A DNA stretch of 64,000 nucleotides, from positions 1-64,000 of the IMG/VR virus record IMGVR_UViG_3300025131_000013; one strand, 5' to 3'. The notes under the pieces were generated by a model that was not told the DNA's origin, ran no database searches, and saw only the letters and a program-made list of their open reading frames with translations. The number at the start of each line of letters is the position of its first letter. Within the stretch, counting starts at the first letter, position 1. Both the position numbers and the translations under genes were made by a program. Shown here piece after piece: positions 1 through 24,622 of the stretch. The DNA is from a virus.

Positions 1-118
1 ACGAAGATGACGAAGATGACGAAGATGACGAAGATGACGAAGATGACGAAGATGATGACGATGACGATGACGAAGATGATGACGAAGATGATGACGAAGA
101 TGATGAGGATGAGGATGA
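1..118 (+). repeat. Coding (GAAGATGAC)n / GATGAC microsatellite encoding poly-Asp/Glu
   Basis: Directly visible tandem 9-mers and 3-mers. Confidence 0.9.
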
Positions 119-584
119 GCCTCCCGCCAAGCCCAAGGCCAAGGCCAAGGGCAAGGGCCGTCCCGACATCAGCCAGTTCACGAAGCGTGCTGAAGGTCCG
201 GTGGGACCGGGAATTGAAGATGGTCTCCCGTGTTGTGCCTACAACGCCCCCTGGCCGTCATCTAAACCACGCAATATTGCATTCGAGGAAATCCAGAAGG
301 CTGGCAAGAAGGGTCTGGGTAAGGACGCTTGGGTTGAGAATGTTGCCGCTCGGTTTAAGAAGGAGAAGCTCACCCAGTCTCCGACTTCCTCGGTTACAAC
401 CGTCCTGAAGGCTGGTCGTCGCGTGACGATTGAGCCCAAGGGCAAGGGCGAGAAGGTTCGCTACGTGGTTGTCTGGCCGCTGAAGAATTCGCCTGAGTTT
501 GCTGAGTATGATAAGGCCCAGGCTGCCGCCGCCAAGAAGGGTGCGAAGGGCAAGACGAAGGGAAAGGGCAAGTCCAAGAAGTAA
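3..584 (+). CDS. 5'-truncated acidic/basic putative winged-helix nucleoid-like protein (paralog A)
   Basis: Frame of ORF 201..584 is open back to the window start: (E/D)n tract, PAKPKAK linker, a domain shared with 5986..6564 and 18533..18862 (RNxAF/W..Q.AGK.G....W...RRV.I...YV.V.P), and a Lys-rich tail. Confidence 0.75.
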   Translation, partial: EDDEDDEDDEDDEDDEDDDDDDDEDDDEDDDEDDEDEDEPPAKPKAKAKGKGRPDISQFTKRAEGPVGPGIEDGLPCCAYNAPWPSSKPRNIAFEEIQKAGKKGLGKDAWVENVAARFKKEKLTQSPTSSVTTVLKAGRRVTIEPKGKGEKVRYVVVWPLKNSPEFAEYDKAQAAAAKKGAKGKTKGKGKSKK

Positions 585-618
585 GTGCTCTGACGCATGC
601 CCTGGACTTTCTATTAAG

Positions 619-655
619 CAAGGGACGGGTCCGAAATATGGCCCGTCCCTTGTTT
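619..655 (+). terminator. Putative intrinsic terminator
   Basis: Stem CAAGGGACGGG/CCCGTCCCTTG followed by TTT, just after the stop at 584. Confidence 0.6.
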
Positions 656-671
656 CACAGTTGAGGATGGA

Positions 672-2042
672 ATGCCTAGACTAGTAATAATTGGCGGGGG
701 AATCTCGGGTGCCTCTATGTTCTACCATATGAGGATTAATTATCCTGAATGGGAAGTAGTCCTCCTTGAGCGGGGAGACAAGGTAGGAGGGATCAATCGT
801 AGTATTGAAGTAGAAGGGCTGAGATTTAGCCTGGGCAGTCGCTACATCTTCGCTATCGACGAGTATACTAACGACCTAGTGAACGGCCTTGCAAACAATG
901 AATGCGTTCGCGGACAATCGAATCATTCCGTGTTCTATAAGAAGCGTTATATAGAGTTTCCTGTACAATTGAATACCTCAGGTCTTTCAATCAGAGAACG
1001 GGCAGAGTGTCTCTGGAAGCTATGGTGGAGAAAGAAGTGGGATAGCGAGACTATGTGGTCCTTTGAAGACTGGGCTATTTGCAACTTCGGAGAGGCTATT
1101 GCCCGCAAGTTCATCTTGAGTCACGTAACGAAATGTTGGCGGACGGATCCAGGTGAGATTGACTATACCGGATCGGCCAAGAAGGTGATGGAACCAAGAG
1201 TAAGGGATATGGTCTGGGGAGCACTCAGGCGTCAGAAGTCTTTTAAGAATCAGGAGTTCCTGTATCCCAAAGGTGGGATTGGGACTATTGTGGATGAGAT
1301 GATAGAGCGCGGTCAATGTATTGACGACAATAAGGGATATGGCTCAGTCAGCACTAAGTTTATGGTTCACTCGGTAGATATGAGTGAGAGACTGGTTGCC
1401 TCTGAGGACGGGCAAGAGGTTCCGTATGACGCCATAGTTTCGACTATCCCGATGCCTGGGCTAGTAAACTTGATCGACAACTCCAATATTGGAGTCCCGC
1501 AATCAGTCATCCTTGCCGGGGACAAACTTAGATACAATTGTATGGCCTCGGTGATGCTGGTATTTGAAGGAGATATATTAGATGGGCGCCAAGAGCATTT
1601 CATTTACGTTCCTGGAAAAGAGTATTGGTTCTCCAGAGTTTCAATTCCGAGAAACTTTGATCCTACTTCCTGCCCAGAAGGGTATACCTCCCTCCTGGTT
1701 GAAATATGTTACAATAGGGAGCAGAAAGGATTGCTCTTTAGAAAAGACTACCAAACGGAGTTGGCTACGAAGGTGGCTAAAGAAGTAAATGATCTGTTCC
1801 CGAAGCTCGACCTGACTGCTAGGCTTAAGGGCTTTGCAGTAGGGGTTATTGACCCGGCCTATATCATAACGGATGAGAACTATAAGGAGTCCAGAGCGGA
1901 TTGTTTACGGTATCTAGCTCAGAACGACATCCATATGCTTGGCCGCTTTGGGAAGTGGGACTGGAGTAGGATTGAAGACACTATCCCTGAGTCGAGGGAT
2001 CTATCTCATCAAATCGGTGGGAGGCTGTGGCTAAATGAGTAA
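672..2042 (+). CDS. FAD-dependent oxidoreductase (UDP-galactopyranose mutase / protoporphyrinogen oxidase-like)
   Basis: N-terminal IIGGGISG..LLE...VGG dinucleotide motif, YPKGGIG, VSTIPM, C-terminal GRFGKWDW. Confidence 0.8.
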   Translation: MPRLVIIGGGISGASMFYHMRINYPEWEVVLLERGDKVGGINRSIEVEGLRFSLGSRYIFAIDEYTNDLVNGLANNECVRGQSNHSVFYKKRYIEFPVQLNTSGLSIRERAECLWKLWWRKKWDSETMWSFEDWAICNFGEAIARKFILSHVTKCWRTDPGEIDYTGSAKKVMEPRVRDMVWGALRRQKSFKNQEFLYPKGGIGTIVDEMIERGQCIDDNKGYGSVSTKFMVHSVDMSERLVASEDGQEVPYDAIVSTIPMPGLVNLIDNSNIGVPQSVILAGDKLRYNCMASVMLVFEGDILDGRQEHFIYVPGKEYWFSRVSIPRNFDPTSCPEGYTSLLVEICYNREQKGLLFRKDYQTELATKVAKEVNDLFPKLDLTARLKGFAVGVIDPAYIITDENYKESRADCLRYLAQNDIHMLGRFGKWDWSRIEDTIPESRDLSHQIGGRLWLNE

Positions 2043-2943
2043 GAGACTCCTGTATGTTGAGCGGGCTAAGAAGAATCTGAATGCCACACATCGCCTCAAA
2101 GGGTTTATCCAAGCAGGATGGGAACCCTATCTGATCGATATTGCGAATGTGCGTCCCGATATAATAATGAAGCAAGCCAAGATGTTAGACCCTCACGCCG
2201 TCTTTATATCGGTGGCCGCTTCCTCTTGTCTTGAGGAACTGGAAGCCTTGCTTCCAAAGGCGTATATCTTCCTGTTCTTGGGAGATATATATGGTCCTTC
2301 GTTCAGGTATGTTGCGTCTTTGGTCCCTCATTTTGATTGTCTGCTGGTAAGTAACAATGATACCAGAATTCACAATTACTTCTTGAGTCGAGGGGTGAAG
2401 AGGGTTGAGGAGCATCAATGTGCTACAGATACTATTCATTATAAGGACAATGGGACCGAGCCAGACAAGGATCTCGTTTTTGCCGGGAATGTAGTCAGGA
2501 GAACAAAGGACTATGCCTTCAGGCGAGAGATGGTTACAGAGTTGGTTGATAAGGGGGTCTTGGGTGCTTTCGGTGCAGGATGGAATGAGAGAGCCAGACC
2601 TTGTAGCCTACTTCAATACCCGAAGATGATGACCCGAGGCAAGATCCAGTTGGTGATTAACGGGTTTGGATTCCTGAGGAATTGTTACTCAAATAGAACT
2701 TGGAACGCCTTAGCTATGGGCCGGCCAGTCCTTCACTATAGGACGAGGAACGCTGAGAGGTATTTCCGCGATGGATTTGACTTAGCTTTCTTCTCAAGCC
2801 GGGACGAGCTGTATTTGAAGATGAGGTGGCTCTTGGATAATCCGGATGAGGCTAAGGCCATAGGGCAAAGGGGGCGTAGGTTGGTAGAGAAGTGGCATAC
2901 CTACAAGAACCGGGGCGAGGAACTGTTGGAGCTATTAGGATGA
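2035..2943 (+). CDS. CgeB-like glycosyltransferase (Glyco_trans_1_2)
   Basis: DLVFAGN, FGAGW, YSNRTWNALAMG, LLDNPDEAKAIGQRGR..V...HTY..R; clear paralog of 36113..37126. Confidence 0.8.
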   Translation: MSKRLLYVERAKKNLNATHRLKGFIQAGWEPYLIDIANVRPDIIMKQAKMLDPHAVFISVAASSCLEELEALLPKAYIFLFLGDIYGPSFRYVASLVPHFDCLLVSNNDTRIHNYFLSRGVKRVEEHQCATDTIHYKDNGTEPDKDLVFAGNVVRRTKDYAFRREMVTELVDKGVLGAFGAGWNERARPCSLLQYPKMMTRGKIQLVINGFGFLRNCYSNRTWNALAMGRPVLHYRTRNAERYFRDGFDLAFFSSRDELYLKMRWLLDNPDEAKAIGQRGRRLVEKWHTYKNRGEELLELLG

Positions 2944-3129
2944 AATGCTATTTGGACTCAAGAAGTTGGCCCCGTTTTCAAGTTACCCTGACTTCATTCC
3001 GAGAGAGGCTTTTGAGATACAACAAGTGATAGGATGGATTATCTAAGGGAGGATTTCAAAAAGAAGGTTTCCCAGCAGTGTCGAGTGAAGGCGTTTACTG
3101 AATTTTTTTTTAGAGAGTGGAGGAAAGCA

Positions 3130-3948
3130 ATGGCTGGTGAATCAATAGGACTCACAGCATCATCTTCAGAGCAGTCAACGGTTCCGATAACAAACTCACC
3201 GATAGTGAAGCTGGTGTCTCCGCCAGATTCCTTCGATTGTCTTACTCAGATCTCGACGATGTGGTTGGCGGCCCATCATGTCGATCCGATTGCGATCCAA
3301 AAGACGCTGACTATCGAACAGATGCGGTCTATGATTTGGGACGAGGTGATCCCGATTCCTGCTTGGCAGACGGTGTTGGAGTGTGTTCGGTTTACGTTTG
3401 TGATCCACAATATGAGCCGACCGGCGCAGCAGCAGTTGACCCGACAGAGGCTTGGAGTTGGCTTCAATAACAACTCCCTTCGGATCATCAAGCTTGAGAC
3501 GTTCGCGGACGATGACCGGTATCGGACGCCTCCTGGTTTGAATGAGGAACAGCACAATTTATACCACAGCGCCATAGATCGGTCGCAAGAGGACTATGAG
3601 GAGCTTCTTAAGGCAGGTGTGAGTCAAGAATCAGCCCGAGGTGTCCTTCCTCAGAATATCCACTCGCCTACGTTGACGATGTTCTCCGATCTGCGCGCCC
3701 TCCGAGGGTTCATCTCCAAGAGGCTTTGCTACGAGGCCCAGGATGAGATGAATGAATTTGCTGTATCCCTTAAGAGAGAAGTTGATGAGTGGGATCACTG
3801 GTTCGGTGGACTGCTTTCCTTCCCTTGCTCCCGAGATAAGGAGTGTGTGATTGGTCCAGGTGCCGCTGAACGTTGCCCGCTTCCGTATGAGTGGAAGGGT
3901 GGTGCCAATAAGGGTGTTGTTATTACTTCCCATAAGGAGATCAGGTGA
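3130..3948 (+). CDS. thyX: FAD-dependent thymidylate synthase ThyX-like (variant motif)
   Basis: LE.VRFTF.I..MSR..QQQLTRQR..GF...SLR, GVSQESARGVLP, LRALRGFISKRLC..AQDEM; start at 3130 chosen after a purine-rich SD. Confidence 0.8.
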   Translation: MAGESIGLTASSSEQSTVPITNSPIVKLVSPPDSFDCLTQISTMWLAAHHVDPIAIQKTLTIEQMRSMIWDEVIPIPAWQTVLECVRFTFVIHNMSRPAQQQLTRQRLGVGFNNNSLRIIKLETFADDDRYRTPPGLNEEQHNLYHSAIDRSQEDYEELLKAGVSQESARGVLPQNIHSPTLTMFSDLRALRGFISKRLCYEAQDEMNEFAVSLKREVDEWDHWFGGLLSFPCSRDKECVIGPGAAERCPLPYEWKGGANKGVVITSHKEIR

Positions 3949-4012
3949 TCTTAGGGATCGTAGGATTTTTGGCTTTCTTTAGTTTGACAGTTTACGAGAA
4001 TGGGAAATAGTC

Positions 4013-4321
4013 ATGGTACAGCAACGAGAAGGACGTATACTCACAGTTACCCCTGAGAATTACCAGCAGATTATGCTTGCCGTCTTAAGGACCAATAACG
4101 CTGGTAACCTCAAACTTCTTAGCATACGTGCTGGGGAAGCCGGCATTGCGGACCCGAAGGTAATAGACAAGTTGACTGATAATCAATGGATGGCGATGCT
4201 ACATAAGCTGAGGGCCGTTCATCCGGAGCTTACTGAGGATGAGCGTGAAAGTTCTAAGGAATGGTGCTTCAAGAACGGGGTCTATCCAGGAGGGAATAGT
4301 GAGTTCGACGAATCTGTCTAG
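4013..4321 (+). CDS. Hypothetical protein
   Basis: ORF track; tightly packed with neighbours. Confidence 0.6.
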   Translation: MVQQREGRILTVTPENYQQIMLAVLRTNNAGNLKLLSIRAGEAGIADPKVIDKLTDNQWMAMLHKLRAVHPELTEDERESSKEWCFKNGVYPGGNSEFDESV

Positions 4322-5135
4322 GCCAAAGATCACCCTCTCTTACCAAGGTGGGCTTAAGGGTAAATCCGGTCCCAACGGCCGCATCTCTGTAAGTAAAAGA
4401 CCTAAGAGGATAGCCCCAACAAAGCGGACCAAAGCGTCCCGTGTAACTGACTTCAATATTCATGTTAGGTCTACTTTACCGCAAGATGTTCCTCCCAGTC
4501 ATATCTGTAATGGCCCAACCTACAAGCGTTTATGTACAATATCTGCTGGGAAGGGGACAGATCATTCTGGGGTTGGTCGGTGTAAAACTCATGAATCCAG
4601 GACAAGCATGACAGTAAGAAAGCAAGCAGAAGGTTTGGAAGCAGTCAAGAGTAGATACGGGGGTGGTGCACCGACCAACCTCAAAAAAGCCTATGATGAG
4701 ATGCTTTCAGATAAGGGCTTGATGAGTGTAGATGAGGAGATGGCTGCCTCGAAAGCTATGCTCAAGGCTATTATGGAGAGTATAGGTGAGGTTGACTTCT
4801 CGTCAGATGAAGGAACGGATAAGGCTTTGAAGTTCTTGAAGGCGTTCAAGGACGTAACTACTCTCAACCTTAAATATCAGGAGATCCAGAGAAAGTCTGA
4901 TTTCATCATCACCCTTCCCCAGTTCATGAAGATAGTGAAACAAATCGGTGCTATTGTAACAGAGGAATTAGAAGCTGTTGATCCTGTAGTCAAGACCAAG
5001 CTGATGAGGCGGTTAATTGCAGAACTGGATATTACGGGCCAGTCAGCAATGGCCTCAGAAGGGGCTGTGGATGCCCCATTCGATGTGGAGGATGGTGATG
5101 AAGAGGAAGGAACACAGGAAGTTAAAGTGCTCTGA
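4299..5135 (+). CDS. Putative terminase small subunit-like protein (HGGxSTG-type Zn motif)
   Basis: C-x8-C..SAGKGTDHSGVGRCKTH motif followed by a helical body; GTG start inferred. Confidence 0.5.
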   Translation: MSSTNLSRPKITLSYQGGLKGKSGPNGRISVSKRPKRIAPTKRTKASRVTDFNIHVRSTLPQDVPPSHICNGPTYKRLCTISAGKGTDHSGVGRCKTHESRTSMTVRKQAEGLEAVKSRYGGGAPTNLKKAYDEMLSDKGLMSVDEEMAASKAMLKAIMESIGEVDFSSDEGTDKALKFLKAFKDVTTLNLKYQEIQRKSDFIITLPQFMKIVKQIGAIVTEELEAVDPVVKTKLMRRLIAELDITGQSAMASEGAVDAPFDVEDGDEEEGTQEVKVL

Positions 5136-6675: not shown

Positions 6676-7197
6676 ATGCGACACTTCGCTATGATAAGCC
6701 GAAAGGCGGCAAAGAGCCTCATAGCAAAGACCAGAAATATCCCCTTGGTCTTTGTTGAGTCGAAAGAGATTAGTTCAGGCAAATCTTTCTCCAGAAAGGA
6801 GATTCTCAGAAGGGCAGAGAAGGTGGCTGCTAAGCGGGACTGGAGGGTATCGTTCGCAGAAAAGGTGGTGCGACGAGAAATAGCCCGATTGAAAGTGAAT
6901 TTGTTTAAGATACCAACTGGCGCCTTTGTTGGTATGGCCTATTCAGTCAAAGGCTACAGAATCAGATATGACCTGATTGAAGTGCCTTTTCCAGTTGGTG
7001 GTAGAGTGCTTTGGAAGTACAGAGCCAAAGATTGTTCTTGTCCTGCTGGTAGCAGAGGTCGTCGATGTTGGCATCAGGATTATACAGACTACATGCTTGA
7101 CGGGCTGACTACTATTCCCCAGAAGTATGGCCCATTTAACAAAAGGATGCTGAAGTATATAGTGAAGCAAAAACGGGAATGGAAAGCCGAGAGGTGA
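6676..7197 (+). CDS. SWIM zinc-finger protein
   Basis: CSCPAGSRGRRCWH fits CxC-n-CxH. Confidence 0.7.
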   Translation: MRHFAMISRKAAKSLIAKTRNIPLVFVESKEISSGKSFSRKEILRRAEKVAAKRDWRVSFAEKVVRREIARLKVNLFKIPTGAFVGMAYSVKGYRIRYDLIEVPFPVGGRVLWKYRAKDCSCPAGSRGRRCWHQDYTDYMLDGLTTIPQKYGPFNKRMLKYIVKQKREWKAER

Positions 7198-7218
7198 AAA
7201 TGAGGAGGTCAGGTCGCT

Positions 7219-7401
7219 ATGATGGTCTGGAGAAATTCTGTGACGTGTTTACCAAGCGAACGGGAAGACCTGAGGAAGGCAATATACGCATATGCCTTGA
7301 CGTTGAAGAAGGGTAGTGTTGAGCGCAAGAAATATGTTAAATATTATCAGGCGTTTAAGAACGCAGACGAGCGGCAAGCCGAGGATGTGAAGGGGAATTA
7401 G
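7219..7401 (+). CDS. Hypothetical protein
   Basis: ORF track; GGAGG upstream. Confidence 0.45.
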   Translation: MMVWRNSVTCLPSEREDLRKAIYAYALTLKKGSVERKKYVKYYQAFKNADERQAEDVKGN

Positions 7402-7404
7402 CCG

Positions 7405-7433
7405 TAGGTTTTCAATTGGGGATTCGTTACCTT
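7405..7433 (+). promoter_or_regulatory. Conserved early promoter copy (TAGGTT-N17-TACCTT)
   Basis: Motif match. Confidence 0.75.
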
Positions 7434-7503
7434 TAAGTAGGTAGGGAAACGGCCCATAGAGGGCTAATCGGACAACCTAACTTACGCCCAAAGGAGGGCT
7501 AAG

Positions 7504-7887
7504 ATGGCTAACAAGAAAGACCTCGGTAGTCTCTTAGAGCAATTCTTACCGAAGCTGAACGCCTTCGCTTCAGAACCGGAAACGGTGAGAGAGTCGCTCA
7601 GGAAGATCCTGGAGCATACCGAACATAAGCAGTTCTTACTGGGCCTAGAGCAGGCCTCCGATCCACTCGCTTTCGCCTACAATATATACCTCTGGACTCA
7701 GGGGATGACGAAGGAAGTGAGAGGGTCGGGCGAACTGAAGAAAGGAAAGACCTGGACGGAGAAGCAGATGAGCAGGGGATACTCTCCTGACGAGATAGAC
7801 TGCGACGCCGATCAACCCTTCACGAGTAACGCGATGATCGCTACGATTGACGGTCACGTTAGACTAGGGAAGATGAGACGTGAGTGA
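7504..7887 (+). CDS. Hypothetical early protein
   Basis: AAGGAGG SD; first gene after a promoter copy. Confidence 0.7.
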   Translation: MANKKDLGSLLEQFLPKLNAFASEPETVRESLRKILEHTEHKQFLLGLEQASDPLAFAYNIYLWTQGMTKEVRGSGELKKGKTWTEKQMSRGYSPDEIDCDADQPFTSNAMIATIDGHVRLGKMRRE

Positions 7888-8311
7888 TACGATCCTATAT
7901 ACTGACGCAGGGTGTAGGAAAGATCTATCCCTTGGATCGTATGCCTACTATGTAGATGACTCACTCAAGGGATCTGGCTCCTTGAAGGGTCGTGTGAGTC
8001 CTACTAGTTGCGAGCTACTTGCCGTTCTTATTGGACTGAAGCGACTCAAGAAACTTGGCTATACTGAAGTGATAGTTAAGACCGACTCCCAGTATGTTGC
8101 GGGGATAATGAATAACCGAGCACATTGGCTTTCTATACCGAGGGATGAGAAGAGCCATAGCCGGATGGTTATGAGGCTCTACCGAGCGATTGAAGAAATG
8201 GAGGTAGAGGCTATTTGGATACCAGAGAATAGCGAGCACGGGAATGAGGTGGCCCATCGAATCGCCTCGGCCAGACTAAGAGAGGTGAAAGGATGTACAT
8301 CAATATCTTGA
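7880..8311 (+). CDS. rnhA: Ribonuclease HI
   Basis: LYTDAG, ELLAVL, VKTDSQYV, WIP...HGNEVAH; the last acidic residue (usually D) is replaced by H. Confidence 0.8.
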   Translation: MSDTILYTDAGCRKDLSLGSYAYYVDDSLKGSGSLKGRVSPTSCELLAVLIGLKRLKKLGYTEVIVKTDSQYVAGIMNNRAHWLSIPRDEKSHSRMVMRLYRAIEEMEVEAIWIPENSEHGNEVAHRIASARLREVKGCTSIS

Positions 8312-18532: not shown

Positions 18533-18862
18533 CTAGTTCTGCTTCTTCTCCCGTGGCTTACCGGGAGCTACCGCCACATAGTTCCCGTTCTCCAATCGGG
18601 TAACTACCACCCGCCTCTTCGCACGGACGACGAAATTGGCGTAGAATAGCGGGTTGGCGATACCCGCCTCGGTCAGCTTTTCGAGCCAATCGACCTTACT
18701 GATTCCCGTTTTTCCCGCGTCCTGGAGAATCTGCCAGGCTCGGTTGCGACCCTCGCTGCGCTTAAACGGTGATCGCGCGTTGTGGTACGGGAGTGCGGAA
18801 CTGCCGAGACTCTCAGCGAGACTCGGAACGACCTGCGGCTGCTTCTTACTCTGGGTGCCCAT
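18533..18862 (-). CDS. Putative winged-helix nucleoid-like protein, minimal form (paralog C)
   Basis: RNRAWQILQDAGKTGISKVDW...RRVVV...GNYVAVAP; GAGGAG SD before MGTQ. Confidence 0.8.
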   Translation of the reverse strand: MGTQSKKQPQVVPSLAESLGSSALPYHNARSPFKRSEGRNRAWQILQDAGKTGISKVDWLEKLTEAGIANPLFYANFVVRAKRRVVVTRLENGNYVAVAPGKPREKKQN

Positions 18863-18910
18863 ATCGGACTCCTCATTTTTAGGTCTGAGGCCTATCCCCG
18901 ACCTGCATTT

Positions 18911-18939
18911 AATATAACGGATTCGCACTGAGATTCCTA
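18911..18939 (-). promoter_or_regulatory. Conserved early promoter copy (TAGGAA-N17-TATATT), minus strand
   Basis: Reverse complement matches the motif; upstream of paralog C. Confidence 0.75.
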
Positions 18940-19770: not shown

Positions 19771-19948
19771 AACGATCCGTTGACTGGGATATTACTTATT
19801 CAGTCAACGGATCGTTGTTCGAGCTGGTAGGTATTGCTGGCTGCTGCTGGTTGCTGGTTGGCTTTCAGCCAGTCAGTCAGCTTCCAGTCAGTCAGCCAGT
19901 CAGCTTTCAGTCAGTCAGTCAGAAATCACAACCGGCATAGGGTAAGCA
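19771..19948. repeat. CA/TG-rich block 3: 16-bp inverted repeat, then (G/T)CTG and (CAGT)n tracts
   Basis: AACGATCCGTTGACTG (19771-86) / CAGTCAACGGATCGTT (19801-16); TG-rich 19824-19860 followed by CAGT repeats 19866-19921. Confidence 0.85.
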
Positions 19949-19966
19949 CGTTAGAAAAACTAAGTC

Positions 19967-20000
19967 CTACTACTTAGCCTTAAGCGATACTAAGTAGTAG
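19967..20000 (+). repeat. 34-bp palindromic site L (11-12-11)
   Basis: CTACTACTTAG-CCTTAAGCGATA-CTAAGTAGTAG. Confidence 0.85.
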
Positions 20001-20187
20001 TGGGAAAAATCTACCGGAAGAAAATTCTTAAGAAAAAGATTAGTTTCGCTTAAGGGAAAAATCTTCCTCTACGAAAATTATAAGACGTTCTACTACTTTT
20101 CCGCTTAAAGCGAAATCTATACCTAAAAGCGAAAAAAAGGCGAAAAAAGACGAGAAAATTTTTTTTACGAAAAGCGAAAAAAAACGC

Positions 20188-20216
20188 TAGACTCGACTAG
20201 TTTAATACCCTATACT
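20188..20216 (+). promoter_or_regulatory. sigma70-like promoter TAGACT-N17-TATACT free of CA/TG
   Basis: Near-consensus boxes, 17-nt spacer, upstream A-tracts. Confidence 0.7.
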
Positions 20217-20429
20217 TAGACCTACGAACCCTAACGAAAGGAAACGAAGAAAAGAGTAAAAAGAGTAGACTCTAGGCGAAGCGGGAACTTAGGCTTTCGC
20301 CCTTACTACCTAGAGTCCTACCGCCGGATTATCGGGATAACCCTTAAATATCCGGCTTAAAAGGTTCCTAGCTTACCGTAAAAAGCTAGACTCGATTTAT
20401 TTTTTTTTACTTCTCTTTAGGAGAAAAAA

Positions 20430-20978
20430 ATGTCTCTCGATATTACCCCCGTAGAGGCCGCCGTAGAGGTCCCCGTAGTCGGAGACTCTAAGGACGCCGG
20501 GATATACGCCTATAACCTTTTCGAAGTCGCCCGGATCGCCGTAGCGCGGCGTCCTAAAGACGCGAAAAAGGTTAAGGTAGGAACCGAAGATCGAGGCGGT
20601 TATACTAGTCCCGATCGATACGCGTCCTTCCGGCTCGCGTTTTCCCTCTCTCTAACGAATTCCGAAGCTAAACGGGTAGCTATCGTAGCGCGCTTCTCCG
20701 AGACGTTAAAGATTCGGAAACGGATCGTAGACGCCGGAATTCCCGTAGGGAAGGGTTATACCTATAAGGAACTCGCGTCTACCGCCGCCGCTCTACGCTA
20801 CGGCGAAAAGTACTCCGGGTTCGTAGCGTTTCGACCTAACGGTACTCGATTCGCCGTAGCGGAAAAAAACGAGCGTTTCTTTCTTTACGTAGTAAACGCG
20901 AACGGAGAGGTTTTCCCTAACCTTCCCGAATCGCTTAAGGTTAAGGAGGTCGAGGGGGAGCTAATAAAGGTAGAGTAA
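20430..20978 (+). CDS. 182-aa protein encoded without CA/TG dinucleotides (no Cys, His, Gln, Trp or internal Met)
   Basis: AGGAG SD, own promoter and terminator; composition is visible in the translation. Confidence 0.85.
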   Translation: MSLDITPVEAAVEVPVVGDSKDAGIYAYNLFEVARIAVARRPKDAKKVKVGTEDRGGYTSPDRYASFRLAFSLSLTNSEAKRVAIVARFSETLKIRKRIVDAGIPVGKGYTYKELASTAAALRYGEKYSGFVAFRPNGTRFAVAEKNERFFLYVVNANGEVFPNLPESLKVKEVEGELIKVE

Positions 20979-20987
20979 TAAATTCGA

Positions 20988-21021
20988 CTCCCGGTCCTAA
21001 CGGACCGGGGGTTTTTTTTTT
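20988..21021 (+). terminator. Intrinsic terminator
   Basis: CCCGGTCC-TAAC-GGACCGGG followed by T10. Confidence 0.9.
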
Positions 21022-21046
21022 AGCCTATAGGGAAGTTCCTTCCCTT

Positions 21047-21080
21047 CGACTACTTAGTATCGCTTAAGGTTAAGTAGAAC
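21047..21080 (-). repeat. 34-bp site R, inverted copy of site L
   Basis: CGACTACTTAG-TATCGCTTAAGG-TTAAGTAGAAC is 30/34 identical to the reverse complement of 19967..20000. Confidence 0.85.
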
Positions 21081-21290
21081 TAAGCAGAACGGGGTAGGGG
21101 TTAAACGCTAATTTCTTAGCTTTTAACGTCTCAATTGGTCTGCTTACATACACGTGCAATTTTTTGGTGAAATTTGCTTCAGGAGGGTGTTAGTGAGTAG
21201 CGAGGAATAAGAGGGCCACAGCACACCCAACGGTGACGATTACCGAACCTGGCGATTCAGCAATGATGGCGATTAGCGCGTTTAGGAGTT

Positions 21291-22804: not shown

Positions 22805-24622
22805 ATGTCTAGTTTGACCCACAAAAAAAAGAAAAGAAACAAAAAGACTGATCCTGGGGCTTTGCTTCGGGGTGAGCTTTCCAAGCACTTTGGCCTAGAT
22901 GTTGATGAGAGAGCAAACCTTGGATCGGAAAGCGAGGCTAAACAGTTCTTAGAAGAGCAAGATGAGATTTGGGATGAATATCCGGTGACATCAAGTATCT
23001 TCTTTGAGGATTGGATTCGAGAAAAGATGTACCCAATCCAACAGGAGCTGTGCGATGCCGTGCTGGGTGTACTTCCTACAGAGTGGCCTAACGACTTTGA
23101 GGAGGCATTTGCCTTATGGGGTAAGGGGTCAGGTAAGGATAGAACGTCTGCTAAGATGTGTGTCTATCAAGGATACCGGCTGATGTGTATGAGAGACCCT
23201 CACGCCTTCTTTAAGCAGAGCCAGATAGACATCGCCAATATGTCGAGGAATTCTCGACAGGCCAAGAAGGTTTATTTCAATAACCTCAAGGAGGTGGTCC
23301 GAAGATGTTTTGATCCCGCTACCAAGAAGAATTGGTTTGAGGAGCGGGGTGTTGATCTTCGGGAGCAGAAAGATATTCAGTCCGCCGAGATCCGTTTATG
23401 TGGGGCTCACAACGAAGCCCACCATATAGAGCAGGATATAACCTGTCATTCTTTGGATTCAGAGCAGAATACGGGTGAGGGCTTTAACCTGTTCTTCTCG
23501 GTCTTGGATGAGCTTGGAGACTTTGCTGTAGGTAATGGAATAGAGCTTCACGAGGCTATCACAGAAACAACAGTCTCCCGGTATGAGGGTTATGGTAAGG
23601 TAATTGCGATCTCGTTCATGTATAATAAGAGCGACCCATTCCAAATTATCTGGGCTCAGACTAAGGGTGATCCAAAGGTCTTCCAATCTGGACCCCACGC
23701 TACATGGGATGTGAATCTTGGAAGATCAAAAACTTCATTCTCCAGACACTACAAGCGCAATCCTATTCGTGCGCGTAGAGTTTATGAATGCAAAGTGGAT
23801 GATAAACGTTCAGGACTTATCAAGCTCAGATCGGTGGTGGAAAGGATTTTTAATAACGGTGATGTCCTCAATCCCGTTGCCGGTGGTTCTCCTGTCGTCG
23901 GATATTATCCTGAGATTATATCATCACCTGAGACTGTGAAGGCCTTGAGGTTTACGGAGCATTTCAAGCCTAAATCTTCCGCGTGCTATACGGTCCATAT
24001 TGATCTTGCTAAGGGTAAGGCCAAAGGTGACTCCGTAGGATTCTGTATGGCTCACCCGGAGAGAATGAAAGGCTATATAGATGAGGGGATGAAGAAGCTC
24101 TGGGTTCAGATGGGGAATGCTGTCGATACTGAGGAGGAAGTATCCAAAGGCGTAGTGTTCGATCTTATGCTAGGTATAAGGGGAGCAGACGCGACTCAGG
24201 AAGTCCGGTTGGCCGAGATTCGACAACTCATCTATCGTCTCAAGTTTGAGATGAGCTTTAATATCATCAAGGTTACAATGGATGGCTACCAATCAGCTGA
24301 TACGATACAGGAGTTAAATGAAAGGGGAATCCCAACCGAACTGTTATCGGTAGATAGAACTCCAGACCCTTACGAATCTCTTGTTGATTTAGCTTACCAG
24401 GGGCTTGCAAAGGCTTACCCTCATGTTGTTGCCCTAAGAGAGCTAGATGAGGTCGACAATGATGGTAAAACAGGCAAAATCGACCATCCTGCCCTGTCTC
24501 TTGTCCGAATGGCAGAGGAAGGGTTTGAAAAAGGTAGCAAAGATGTTTCGGACGCTATGGCGGGGGCCAGTTATACGTGTATTAGGGACATTCCACTTGA
24601 TTCGGGTGTCTTCTTTGGATAA
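22805..24622 (+). CDS. terL: Terminase large subunit
   Basis: Walker A WGKGSGKD, Walker B SVLDE, nuclease motifs HIDLA, MDGYQS, KIDHP...SKDVSDA. Confidence 0.92.
   Translation: MSSLTHKKKKRNKKTDPGALLRGELSKHFGLDVDERANLGSESEAKQFLEEQDEIWDEYPVTSSIFFEDWIREKMYPIQQELCDAVLGVLPTEWPNDFEEAFALWGKGSGKDRTSAKMCVYQGYRLMCMRDPHAFFKQSQIDIANMSRNSRQAKKVYFNNLKEVVRRCFDPATKKNWFEERGVDLREQKDIQSAEIRLCGAHNEAHHIEQDITCHSLDSEQNTGEGFNLFFSVLDELGDFAVGNGIELHEAITETTVSRYEGYGKVIAISFMYNKSDPFQIIWAQTKGDPKVFQSGPHATWDVNLGRSKTSFSRHYKRNPIRARRVYECKVDDKRSGLIKLRSVVERIFNNGDVLNPVAGGSPVVGYYPEIISSPETVKALRFTEHFKPKSSACYTVHIDLAKGKAKGDSVGFCMAHPERMKGYIDEGMKKLWVQMGNAVDTEEEVSKGVVFDLMLGIRGADATQEVRLAEIRQLIYRLKFEMSFNIIKVTMDGYQSADTIQELNERGIPTELLSVDRTPDPYESLVDLAYQGLAKAYPHVVALRELDEVDNDGKTGKIDHPALSLVRMAEEGFEKGSKDVSDAMAGASYTCIRDIPLDSGVFFG

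What the first reader, a model, noticed from the sequence alone, without database searches (positions are those of the whole stretch)
19967..21080. Two inverted 34-bp palindromic sites bracket the CA/TG-free cassette
Site L (19967-20000) has 11-bp inverted arms around a 12-nt asymmetric core. Site R (21047-21080) is its reverse complement at 30/34 positions with an identical core. Their positions coincide with the edges of the depleted zone. The arm-core-arm design resembles recombinase or dimeric-protein sites, although the core is longer than the 6-8 nt of tyrosine-recombinase sites such as loxP or dif. They could invert or loop out the cassette, or mark terminase cutting or entry pausing. 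No recombinase is visible in this window.
Basis: partly seen in the sequence, partly recalled or inferred. Interest (0 to 1): 0.8.

Follow-up and report, generated by a model that had tools for sequence, protein, structure and literature searches.

The report
Inverted protein-binding sites bracketing CA/TG-free cassette
Two mirror-image 34-bp DNA sites really do sit at both edges of a small phage gene cassette that contains almost no CA/TG, and they look like docking sites for a DNA-binding protein that mark the borders of this unit, not like sites for flipping or cutting out the cassette.

Summary
L (19967-20000) has perfect 11-bp arms around CCTTAAGCGATA. R (21047-21080) is its reverse complement at 30/34 with the same core; 200 composition-matched simulations reached at most 25/34. 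Both lie 4-18 nt inside a 1.1-kb zone with 2 CA/TG where about 135 are expected.

L and R are the outermost of five copies of one element. Its core, CGCTTAAGG, occurs four times in the 93-kb phage genome, all in the cassette.

A related phage (terminase 82% identical) has the same cassette with zero CA/TG over 1,597 bp. It has inverted repeats at the same two positions and exact copies of TCGCTTAAGGTTAA, while the other non-coding DNA is unalignable.

The genome encodes no tyrosine or serine recombinase, orientation is the same in both phages, and R is a poor hairpin.

Best reading (0.42): binding sites of a dimeric DNA-binding protein, possibly the cassette's own 182-aa product (weak winged-helix-like fold), delimiting a self-contained early transcription unit. 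Main rival (0.2): borders of a terminal repeat or an injection stop; this needs reads.

This scan has already reported CA/TG-free islands in other phages. I confirmed one inside the terminal repeat of Wifcevirus.

The parts
19948..21084 (.). CA/TG-free zone (context of the sites): 2 TG and 0 CA in 1137 bp
19967..20000 (-). Site L: perfect 11-bp inverted arms plus the 12-nt core CCTTAAGCGATA. The core motif CGCTTAAGG reads on the minus strand.
   Evidence: As single-stranded DNA it folds at -7.8 kcal/mol, z -2.7.
20004..20016 (+). Box GAAAAATCTACCG directly after L. It is conserved as GAAAAATCTTCCG at the same place in the relative (L005).
20044..20055 (+). Internal copy of the core (TTTCGCTTAAGG), with a partial left arm TTAG
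20088..20112 (+). Degenerate internal copy: arm TTCTACTACTT plus the core-like CCGCTTAAAG
   Evidence: (families D5 and D8)
20188..20216 (+). Only sigma-70-like promoter in the cassette: TAGACT-N17-TATACT. 4/6 is the best match to the -35 consensus that CA/TG-free DNA can reach.
20430..20978 (+). 182-aa ORF with no Cys, His, Gln, Trp or internal Met. Orphan family; weak winged-helix-like fold.
20929..20948 (+). Core plus right-arm copy (AATCGCTTAAGGTTAAGGAG), written into the last codons of the ORF
   Evidence: (family D11)
20986..21023 (+). Intrinsic terminator: 12-pair stem followed by a T run
21029..21045 (.). Small palindrome AGGGAAG-TTC-CTTCCCT next to R. The word TATAGGGAA(G) recurs in the relative's cassette.
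21047..21080 (+). Site R: reverse complement of L at 30/34 with an identical core. Its own arms are only 7/11 complementary.
   Evidence: It is a poor hairpin (-3.7 kcal/mol, z -0.24).
21091..21100 (+). Box GGGGTAGGGG just outside R. It is conserved at the same place in the relative and fixes the right-hand site as positionally equivalent.

Best explanation
L and R are the outermost two members of a cassette-specific family of protein-binding sites. The family has the core CGCTTAAGG flanked by CTACTTAG-type arms. A sequence-specific protein that binds as a symmetric dimer recognises them. The most likely candidate is the 182-aa product of the cassette itself. Bound at both borders and at the internal copies, this protein would delimit and auto-control a self-contained early transcription unit (promoter, 210-nt leader, one gene, terminator), for example by looping or insulating it. 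The sites coincide with the edges of the CA/TG void because they are the outermost functional parts of a unit that must be CA/TG-free throughout. What is shown: the sites, their statistics, their restriction to the cassette, the conserved architecture and conserved 14-mer in a relative, and the absence of recombinases. What is inferred: that a protein binds them, which protein it is, and what binding achieves. The cause of the CA/TG void is a separate question. The reading I favour is that the unit escapes a TG-directed thymidine hypermodification or some other CA/TG-reading agent.
For: (1) L and R match at 30/34, against a maximum of 25/34 in 200 simulations. (2) CGCTTAAGG occurs 4 times in 93,475 bp, all within the 1.1-kb cassette, where about 0.7 is expected genome-wide. 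The 12-mer with up to 1 mismatch also occurs only there. (3) The relative L005 (terminase 82% identical, cassette protein 46-47% identical) has the syntenic cassette with 0 CA/TG over 1,597 bp. Its first and last 120 nt again hold inverted repeats above all 150 simulations (17/20 and 20/25, against maxima of 16 and 18). The pair 3300-3324 / 4747-4771 lies at the same places as L and R: directly before GAAAAATCTNCCG on the left, and between the terminator and GGGGTAGGGG on the right. Its core is CGCTAAAGG. (4) The exact 14-mer TCGCTTAAGGTTAA is shared by both phages, twice in each (once inside R in the window), only in the cassettes, while the surrounding non-coding DNA does not align. (5) The sites lie outside the transcript, about 190 nt upstream of the -35 element and 27 nt past the terminator. 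R has lost self-complementarity but kept its identity to L. So what is conserved is a double-stranded sequence, not a hairpin. (6) The protein model (pLDDT 85-95 over residues 50-125) gives only weak matches, but almost all are winged-helix DNA-binding domains (Z up to 4.2). The distant homologues P0005 and P0007 carry Lys-rich, histone-like tails. (7) No tyrosine or serine recombinase is found.
Against: No binding has been shown. The winged-helix resemblance is below any safe threshold, and Foldseek found nothing. No site overlaps the -35/-10 elements, so this is not classical repression. The centre-to-centre spacing of the arms (23 bp) is large for a simple dimer operator. With only two genomes, co-variation between protein and site cannot be tested. 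The binding protein could equally be the neighbouring conserved 131-aa protein (18533-18928), a terminase subunit or a host factor. The terminal-repeat rival explains the coincidence with the edges equally well.
Confidence: 0.42

Rival explanations
1. L and R mark the borders of a short direct terminal repeat, or of a first-injected segment. The cassette would then be the redundant end of the linear virion DNA. The sites would be where terminase or a nickase cuts, or where DNA entry pauses. Seen from either end, the DNA would begin with the same sequence.
For: All genes run one way and GC skew is positive around the whole map. The only break is at 18-22 kb, directly upstream of the large terminase gene at 22805. 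In cultured Wifcevirus phages I confirmed a CA/TG-depleted block (4-10 per 200 nt against about 29) inside the 3,784-bp terminal repeat. In Twort-like staphylococcal phages, 12-bp inverted repeats mark the borders between the long terminal repeat, which carries early genes, and the unique DNA (PMC7596081; PMC11598898). A 178-aa variant of the protein is on record only on a 1,471-bp contig, which is what a double-coverage repeat assembled on its own would look like. The arms flank a 12-nt core, which recalls the 12-nt stagger of lambda cosN (from my own knowledge).
Against: No read data are available. Three further partial copies lie inside the cassette. In the relative, the best-conserved copies (TCGCTTAAGGTTAA) sit in the upstream non-coding DNA, not at the edges. 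The Wifcevirus repeat has no inverted repeats at its ends, and its void is internal to the repeat.
Confidence: 0.2
2. The non-coding left part of the cassette is a replication origin. The repeated sites would be iterons, and the 182-aa protein would be their winged-helix initiator or a polar fork barrier of the RTP/Ter type.
For: There are several site copies in both orientations, plus phased A-tracts, at 20001-20190. The relative has an 800-bp non-coding region packed with several repeat families. The weak fold matches include the winged-helix domains of ORC2, MCM and Rpa2. The skew break lies here.
Against: The fold matches are weak and generic. One copy lies beyond the terminator and one inside the coding region, which is untypical of iteron arrays. 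No helicase-loading or Rep motifs were found, and there are no Pfam or PHROG hits. The monotonic skew can also be explained by transcription alone.
Confidence: 0.12
3. The sites are recombination sites. Either they are inverted target sites for a site-specific invertase, or they are the terminal inverted repeats of a small mobile cassette.
For: The layout is arm-core-arm, the two sites are inverted relative to each other, and they sit exactly at the borders of a compositionally foreign segment. A neighbouring gene module (18533-18928) has the opposite orientation in the relative, so inversions have occurred in this region.
Against: No Phage_integrase or Resolvase domain is found anywhere in the 93 kb, while the same searches rang in 14 and 13 of the 14 control genomes. 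The 12-nt core fits neither the 6-8 bp spacer of tyrosine recombinases nor the 2-bp core of serine recombinases. The cassette encodes no transposase. The cassette is at the same syntenic position and in the same orientation in a phage whose cassette protein is only 46-47% identical, and its divergence is in line with the neighbouring genes. That points to vertical descent. No clear target-site duplication is present.
Confidence: 0.06
4. The sites act through structure only, as cruciforms, hairpins or bidirectional terminators. Alternatively, the repeat is a by-product of the restricted CA/TG-free sequence space.
For: L is a stable hairpin. The reduced alphabet raises the chance of repeats.
Against: Simulations that keep the cassette's dinucleotide usage never came near 30/34. 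R is not a significant hairpin (z -0.24). Neither site is followed by a proper T run, and the real terminator lies separately at 20986-21023.
Confidence: 0.05

Closest known systems
12-bp inverted repeats at the borders of the long terminal repeats of Twort-like (Kayvirus) staphylococcal phages (PMC7596081; early LTR genes: PMC11598898)
   Same: Short inverted repeats bracket a segment that carries early genes with their own promoters and terminators.
   Different: There the bracketed segment is a proven 7.6-kb terminal repeat with many genes. Here redundancy is unproven, the segment is 1.1 kb with one gene, the sites are 34 bp with an asymmetric core, extra copies lie inside, and the segment is void of CA/TG.
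CA/TG-depleted early blocks in the terminal repeats of Wifcevirus (verified here) and the first-step-transfer region of T5
   Same: A small early-type block near a genome end or junction has a local sequence dialect that avoids a short motif.
   Different: In Wifcevirus WFC the depletion is partial (4-10 per 200 nt) and no inverted repeats mark the repeat ends. Here the void is nearly absolute and is bracketed by mirror-image sites.
Autoregulated small DNA-binding protein genes flanked by their own palindromic operators (for example ArsR/SmtB-type) and B. subtilis RTP with its inverted Ter repeats next to rtp (own knowledge)
   Same: A small, possibly winged-helix protein gene has copies of one palindromic or inverted site upstream and downstream.
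   Different: The fold assignment here is weak, the sites do not overlap the promoter, and no homology to these families was found.
loxP/FRT-type tyrosine-recombinase sites and hix/gix invertase sites
   Same: The total length is 34 bp, with inverted arms around an asymmetric core, and the two copies are in inverted orientation.
   Different: The arms are 11 bp and the core is 12 nt, against 13 + 8 + 13 for loxP or 12 + 2 + 12 for hix. No recombinase gene is present and there is no sign of inversion.
Lambda cos: cosN with 12-nt staggered nicks, and cosB R sites bound by the winged-helix protein gpNu1 (own knowledge)
   Same: Symmetric arms flank 12 nt, the sites lie upstream of the terminase gene, and repeated sites occur in both orientations.
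   Different: There are two full mirror-image copies 1.08 kb apart with a gene between them. No cohesive ends have been shown, and the protein matches no small-terminase family.

Membership tests
Tyrosine-recombinase core sites (loxP, FRT, dif) | Inverted arms of 11-13 bp | tested here: met
   L arms are 11/11 complementary and R arms 7/11.
Tyrosine-recombinase core sites (loxP, FRT, dif) | Asymmetric spacer of 6-8 bp between the cleavage points | tested here: not met
   The core is 12 nt.
Tyrosine-recombinase core sites (loxP, FRT, dif) | Cognate recombinase encoded by the element or genome | tested here: not met
   PF00589 gives no match in the 93,475-bp genome at E up to 1, and rang in 14 of 14 control genomes. 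A host enzyme cannot be excluded.
Serine invertase sites (hix, gix, cix) | 26-bp site with a 2-bp core, plus a resolvase-family invertase | tested here: not met
   The site is 34 bp with a 12-nt core. PF00239 gives no match in the genome.
Invertible segment (any recombinase) | Both orientations present in a population or among close relatives | not testable with these tools
The one relative that could be read has the same orientation.
Transposon or MITE with terminal inverted repeats | Transposase inside, target-site duplication, and variable location among relatives | tested here: not met
   The single ORF has no transposase family hit. The flanks give no clear direct duplication. The cassette is syntenic in the relative.
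Terminal-repeat border repeats (Twort-like type) | Inverted repeats flank a segment with early genes | tested here: met
   The L/R pair flanks a promoter-gene-terminator unit.
Terminal-repeat border repeats (Twort-like type) | The flanked segment is physically duplicated at both virion DNA ends | not testable with these tools
   This needs read coverage and read-end analysis. The contig is a collapsed assembly that breaks inside an acidic-repeat gene.
Operators of a winged-helix autoregulator | The product has a DNA-binding winged-helix fold | tested here: inconclusive
   The top VIA-align rows are nearly all winged-helix domains, but Z is at most 4.2. Foldseek found nothing in pdb or viral. 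There are no PDB sequence hits.
Operators of a winged-helix autoregulator | Repeated, gene-specific palindromic sites at its own gene | tested here: met
   There are five copies, all within the cassette and none elsewhere in 93 kb.
Operators of a winged-helix autoregulator | A site overlaps the promoter | tested here: not met
   The promoter-like site is at 20188-20216. The nearest copy ends at 20112.

The most novel reading that the evidence does not exclude
The mirror-image sites and the CA/TG void form one device. The cassette would be a terminal, first-entering and first-expressed segment that stays free of a TG-directed DNA mark, or of a CA/TG-reading nuclease, in an otherwise marked genome. 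L and R would be the points where this segment is cut out as the terminal repeat, or where DNA entry halts until the 182-aa protein has been made. This would be a border-defined 'unmarked landing strip', a kind of element not described in print as far as I could find.
Probability: 0.15. Interest if true: 0.85.

Novelty: new variant of a known kind. Interest (0 to 1): 0.58.

Why it matters
CA/TG-free gene islands keep turning up in unrelated phages in this scan, and nobody knows what reads the dinucleotide. Here the island has sharp, sequence-defined borders. Mirror-image sites that recur at the same positions in a relative, and a 14-mer that has stayed exact while the surrounding DNA diverged, give concrete things to test: oligonucleotides for pull-down or EMSA, and exact coordinates to look for read ends. 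If the sites bind the cassette's own product, that gives a first functional lead for an orphan protein family whose genes avoid five amino acids. If they are genome ends, that would tie the void to the first DNA to enter the cell.

Tried and rejected
Searches that found no further relatives:
- The cassette DNA and the cassette protein against GenBank phages gave no match.
- The protein, and the homologues P0005, P0007 and P0012, in IMG/VR and GTDB genomes gave no DNA loci.
- The metagenome scan returned only the L005 contig.
- The site pattern and a flank pattern in IMG/VR gave nothing useful.
- A last scan with the L005 protein found only the L005 contig itself.
- As a result, only two cassette DNAs could be compared.
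- More distant phages with a related terminase (35-39% identity), including a complete 87.9-kb genome, have neither the protein nor any CA/TG void.

Function of the protein:
- Pfam and PHROGs gave no hits, and PDB sequences, the ESM Atlas and Foldseek gave no significant or informative match.
- The single-sequence fold was useless.

Other checks:
- Rfam found nothing in 17.7-22.3 kb.
- Hypermodification genes: I scanned about 50 of the larger ORFs. I found ThyX-like, glycosyltransferase, FAD amine-oxidase-like, GT2, methyltransferase and UDG-family genes, but no recognisable 5-hmdU kinase, aGPT-pyrophosphorylase or DpdA. Only the polymerase is shared with Wifcevirus.
- The 123-bp 'terminal repeat' of the distant relative G003 falls in its Pol III alpha region and does not tell where the physical ends lie.
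- Chi-like GCTGGTGG: 4 on the plus strand and 0 on the minus strand, too few to use.

Full report
**What the window is.** The window is bases 1-64000 of a 93,475-bp IMG/VR phage contig. The two contig ends fall in the same acidic-repeat coding sequence, so the record is a collapsed, arbitrarily opened map. Nearly all genes run on the plus strand. The order is as follows:
- a structural block that starts with a large terminase at 22805;
- a replication block with Pol III alpha, DnaB, primase, RecA, SbcCD, an SNF2 helicase and a UDG-family protein;
- nucleotide-metabolism and small genes at 1-17.7 kb.

GC skew is positive all round the map. It drops to about zero only at 18-22 kb. That is the gene-poor, repeat-rich junction that holds the finding.

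**The observation.** It is correct in every countable respect.
- L (19967-20000) has 11/11 complementary arms around CCTTAAGCGATA.
- R (21047-21080) equals the reverse complement of L at 30/34 and has the identical core.
- R's own arms are only 7/11 complementary.
- The inverted repeat extends to 38 nt at 87%.
- In 200 first-order Markov simulations of the cassette, which keep its odd dinucleotide usage, the best 34-nt inverted repeat reached 25/34 at most.
- The void is real. There are two TG and no CA between 19948 and 21084, against about 135 expected. No other dinucleotide class has a comparable gap anywhere in the 93 kb.
- L begins 18 nt inside the left edge and R ends 4 nt inside the right edge.

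**Anatomy of the cassette.** It is a complete transcription unit:
- one sigma-70-like promoter, TAGACT-N17-TATACT, at 20188-20216. Without TG or CA, 4/6 is the best possible match to TTGACA;
- a leader of about 210 nt;
- a 182-aa ORF (20430-20978);
- a strong intrinsic terminator at 20986-21023.

L lies about 190 nt upstream of the promoter and R lies 27 nt beyond the terminator. Both are therefore outside the predicted transcript.

The sites are not just a pair.
- The core 12-mer with up to one mismatch occurs four times in the genome, all in the cassette (19978 minus strand; 20044, 20929 and 21058 plus strand).
- The 9-mer CGCTTAAGG also occurs four times, all in the cassette, where about 0.7 is expected genome-wide.
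- A fifth, degenerate copy with the arm CTACTACTT lies at 20088-20112.
- One copy (20929-20948) is written into the last codons of the ORF.

**The relative.** A scan with the terminase found one close relative, contig IMGVR_UViG_3300024259_000062 (loci L005 and L011; terminase 82% identical).
- At the syntenic place it has a 1,597-bp stretch with no CA or TG at all (L005:3256-4852).
- That stretch encodes a homologue of the 182-aa protein (46-47% identity).
- The stretch therefore holds no ATG, GTG or TTG, so the gene must start at a non-canonical codon, probably the ATT at 4053.
- Outside the terminase region the two phages do not align at the DNA level.

Three things are nevertheless kept.
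- First, the first and last 120 nt of the relative's cassette again hold inverted repeats stronger than in all 150 simulations (17/20 and 20/25, against maxima of 16 and 18).
- Second, one of these pairs (3300-3324 / 4747-4771, core CGCTAAAGG) sits where L and R sit. On the left it lies directly before a conserved box GAAAAATCTNCCG. On the right it lies between the terminator and a conserved GGGGTAGGGG.
- Third, the exact 14-mer TCGCTTAAGGTTAA occurs twice in each phage (once inside R in the window), and CGCTTAAGG occurs only in the cassette in each.

In the relative, the best-conserved copies lie in the 800-bp upstream non-coding region, and one inverted partner lies 255 nt away (pair I1). 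The family is therefore a set of cis elements distributed over the unit, of which the outermost two are mirror images.

**What this argues.**
- A double-stranded sequence is being conserved, not a fold. R is no better a hairpin than shuffled sequence (z -0.24), while L is a good one (z -2.7). Yet R keeps 30/34 identity to L.
- The sites are outside the mRNA.
- They are confined to the cassette in both phages.

This is the signature of binding sites for a sequence-specific protein. The symmetric arms point to a dimer. The asymmetric core, mirrored at the two borders, gives the unit a two-fold layout.

The cheapest candidate for the protein is the cassette's own product.
- With a six-sequence alignment its core (residues 45-165) folds with pLDDT 85-95 over residues 50-125.
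- Foldseek finds nothing.
- The exhaustive aligner returns almost only winged-helix DNA-binding domains, but at Z of 4.2 or less. That is below any safe level.
- The distant homologues P0005 and P0007 have long Lys/Ala-rich tails of the histone-like kind.

I treat DNA binding by this protein as an inference, not a result.

**Against recombination.**
- Profile searches of all six frames of the whole genome find no tyrosine recombinase and no resolvase/invertase. The same searches rang in 14 and 13 of the 14 control genomes.
- The 12-nt core fits neither class.
- The cassette has the same position and orientation in both phages.
- Its protein has diverged about as much as the neighbouring genes (46-60% identity), which indicates vertical descent.
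- There is no transposase and no clear target duplication.
- Flipping would not change expression, because the promoter is inside the cassette.

**The main rival.** L and R could be the borders of a terminal repeat, or an injection stop.
- The junction position, the skew break and the nearness of the terminase gene fit.
- I checked the lead from earlier notes of this scan that CA/TG-poor early blocks lie in terminal repeats. In Wifcevirus ECML-117 a block at 7.0-8.2 kb has 4-8 CA/TG per 200 nt, against a mean of 29.
- In the records that include both repeats, this block matches twice. In phage Mansfield it is annotated as lying in the PhageTerm-predicted direct terminal repeat.
- In WFC the repeat is 3,784 bp and the depleted part is about 1600-3500.
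- In Twort-like phages, 12-bp inverted repeats mark the borders between the early-gene-bearing long terminal repeats and the unique DNA (PMC7596081; PMC11598898).
- A 178-aa variant of the protein is on record only on a 1,471-bp contig. A double-coverage repeat could assemble that way.
- Against this rival: the internal copies; the fact that the best-conserved copies in the relative are not at the edges; and the lack of inverted repeats at the WFC repeat ends.
- Without reads this cannot be settled.

**Why the void exists.** This is a separate finding, but it frames the sites.
- Published work shows thymidine hypermodification that prefers TG: in phages M6, ViI and phiW-14 (PMC6449724) and in Pbunavirus F8 and 14-1, where about a quarter of T carries a sugar-derived group (PMC12191111).
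- Wifcevirus is described as a distant relative of Pbunavirus (PMC11990801).
- A unit free of TG on both strands would stay unmarked.
- In this genome the support is indirect. A ThyX-like gene sits beside a glycosyltransferase and an FAD amine-oxidase-like gene.
- Among 6-bp palindromes, strong avoidance (O/E below 0.5) affects 18 of 45 without CA/TG but only 1 of 15 with CA/TG (one-sided Mann-Whitney p = 0.023).
- Against this, the 4-mers CATG and TGCA are themselves avoided. No hallmark hypermodification enzyme was recognised.
- The cassette ignores the genome's restriction-site avoidance. It holds the only AGTACT, one of two TTCGAA, and 2 of 29 GTAC.
- The trait goes with the gene family. 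P0005 (201 aa) and P0007 (258 aa), only 32-43% identical by the two measures used, also have no Cys, His, Gln, Trp or internal Met.

**Verdict.** The sites are real, non-random, cassette-specific and conserved in architecture. I rate protein-binding border or operator sites at 0.42, terminal-repeat or entry borders at 0.20, origin or iterons at 0.12, recombination or transposition at 0.06, and structure only or chance at 0.05. The rest is unassigned.

As sites they are a new variant of a known kind. Their interest comes from giving the unexplained CA/TG-free island exact, testable borders.

Noticed in passing
L005:4035-4712 (relative contig IMGVR_UViG_3300024259_000062): The homologue of the 182-aa gene lies in 1,597 bp with no TG at all, so it has no ATG, GTG or TTG. 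The likely start is the ATT at 4053, after a GGGGAAAC ribosome-binding-like stretch. Its N-terminus carries four DTEAVD repeats.
   Followed up: partly
window 18533-18928 (-) versus L011:3700-4056 (+): A conserved 131-aa gene (51-61% identical in translated matches) in the same junction has the opposite orientation in the two phages. The module lies between blocks of CAGTCAAC repeats, and 7 of the genome's 13 copies of that motif lie at 18.3-19.8 kb.
   Followed up: partly
whole genome G000; cassette 19948-21084: There is strong restriction-site avoidance: GTAC O/E 0.11, AGCGCT and CTCGAG absent, and TTCGAA, CCTAGG, ACCGGT and AAGCTT at 0.15 or below. 6-bp palindromes that contain CA/TG are avoided much less (p = 0.023). 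The cassette does not obey the avoidance: it holds the only AGTACT and one of two TTCGAA.
   Followed up: partly
window 672-5135: A cluster of an FAD/NAD amine-oxidase-like protein (456 aa), a Glyco_trans_1_2 protein (302 aa), a ThyX-like protein with an N-terminal extension of about 110 aa (304 aa) and an unknown 298-aa protein. This is a candidate nucleotide or DNA modification module, but no known hypermodification enzyme was recognised.
   Followed up: partly
proteins P0005, P0007 (and P0004, P0012): The distant homologues (29-43% identity, depending on the measure) come from other metagenomes. P0005 and P0007 have no Cys, His, Gln, Trp or internal Met and carry Lys/Ala-rich tails. P0004 and P0012 have 2-4 such residues. 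The DNA of these genes could not be obtained.
   Followed up: partly
cluster of the window's protein: There are three near-identical variants: 182 aa (8 contigs, up to 93,475 bp), 175 aa (4 contigs, up to 93,835 bp) and 178 aa (a single 1,471-bp contig). The short contig is about cassette-sized.
   Followed up: no
Escherichia phage WFC MK373777, positions 1-3784 (L022), and ECML-117 JX128258, positions 7000-8200 (L020): Cultured Wifcevirus phages have a CA/TG-depleted block (4-10 per 200 nt against about 29) inside their 3.78-kb direct terminal repeat. The block ends about 200-300 bp before one repeat end. There are no inverted repeats at the repeat ends.
   Followed up: yes
window 21081-21170 and L005:4822-4900: The sequence just right of the cassette is conserved between the phages (GGGGTAGGGG, then a palindrome, then ACATACACG-N3-AATTTTTTG), although the surrounding DNA does not align. 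Its function is unknown.
   Followed up: no
window 1-200 and genome 93276-93475: Both contig ends lie in GAAGATGAC/GATGAG acidic-repeat coding sequence. The assembly broke in a repeat, so the 'linear' label says nothing about the physical ends.
   Followed up: no
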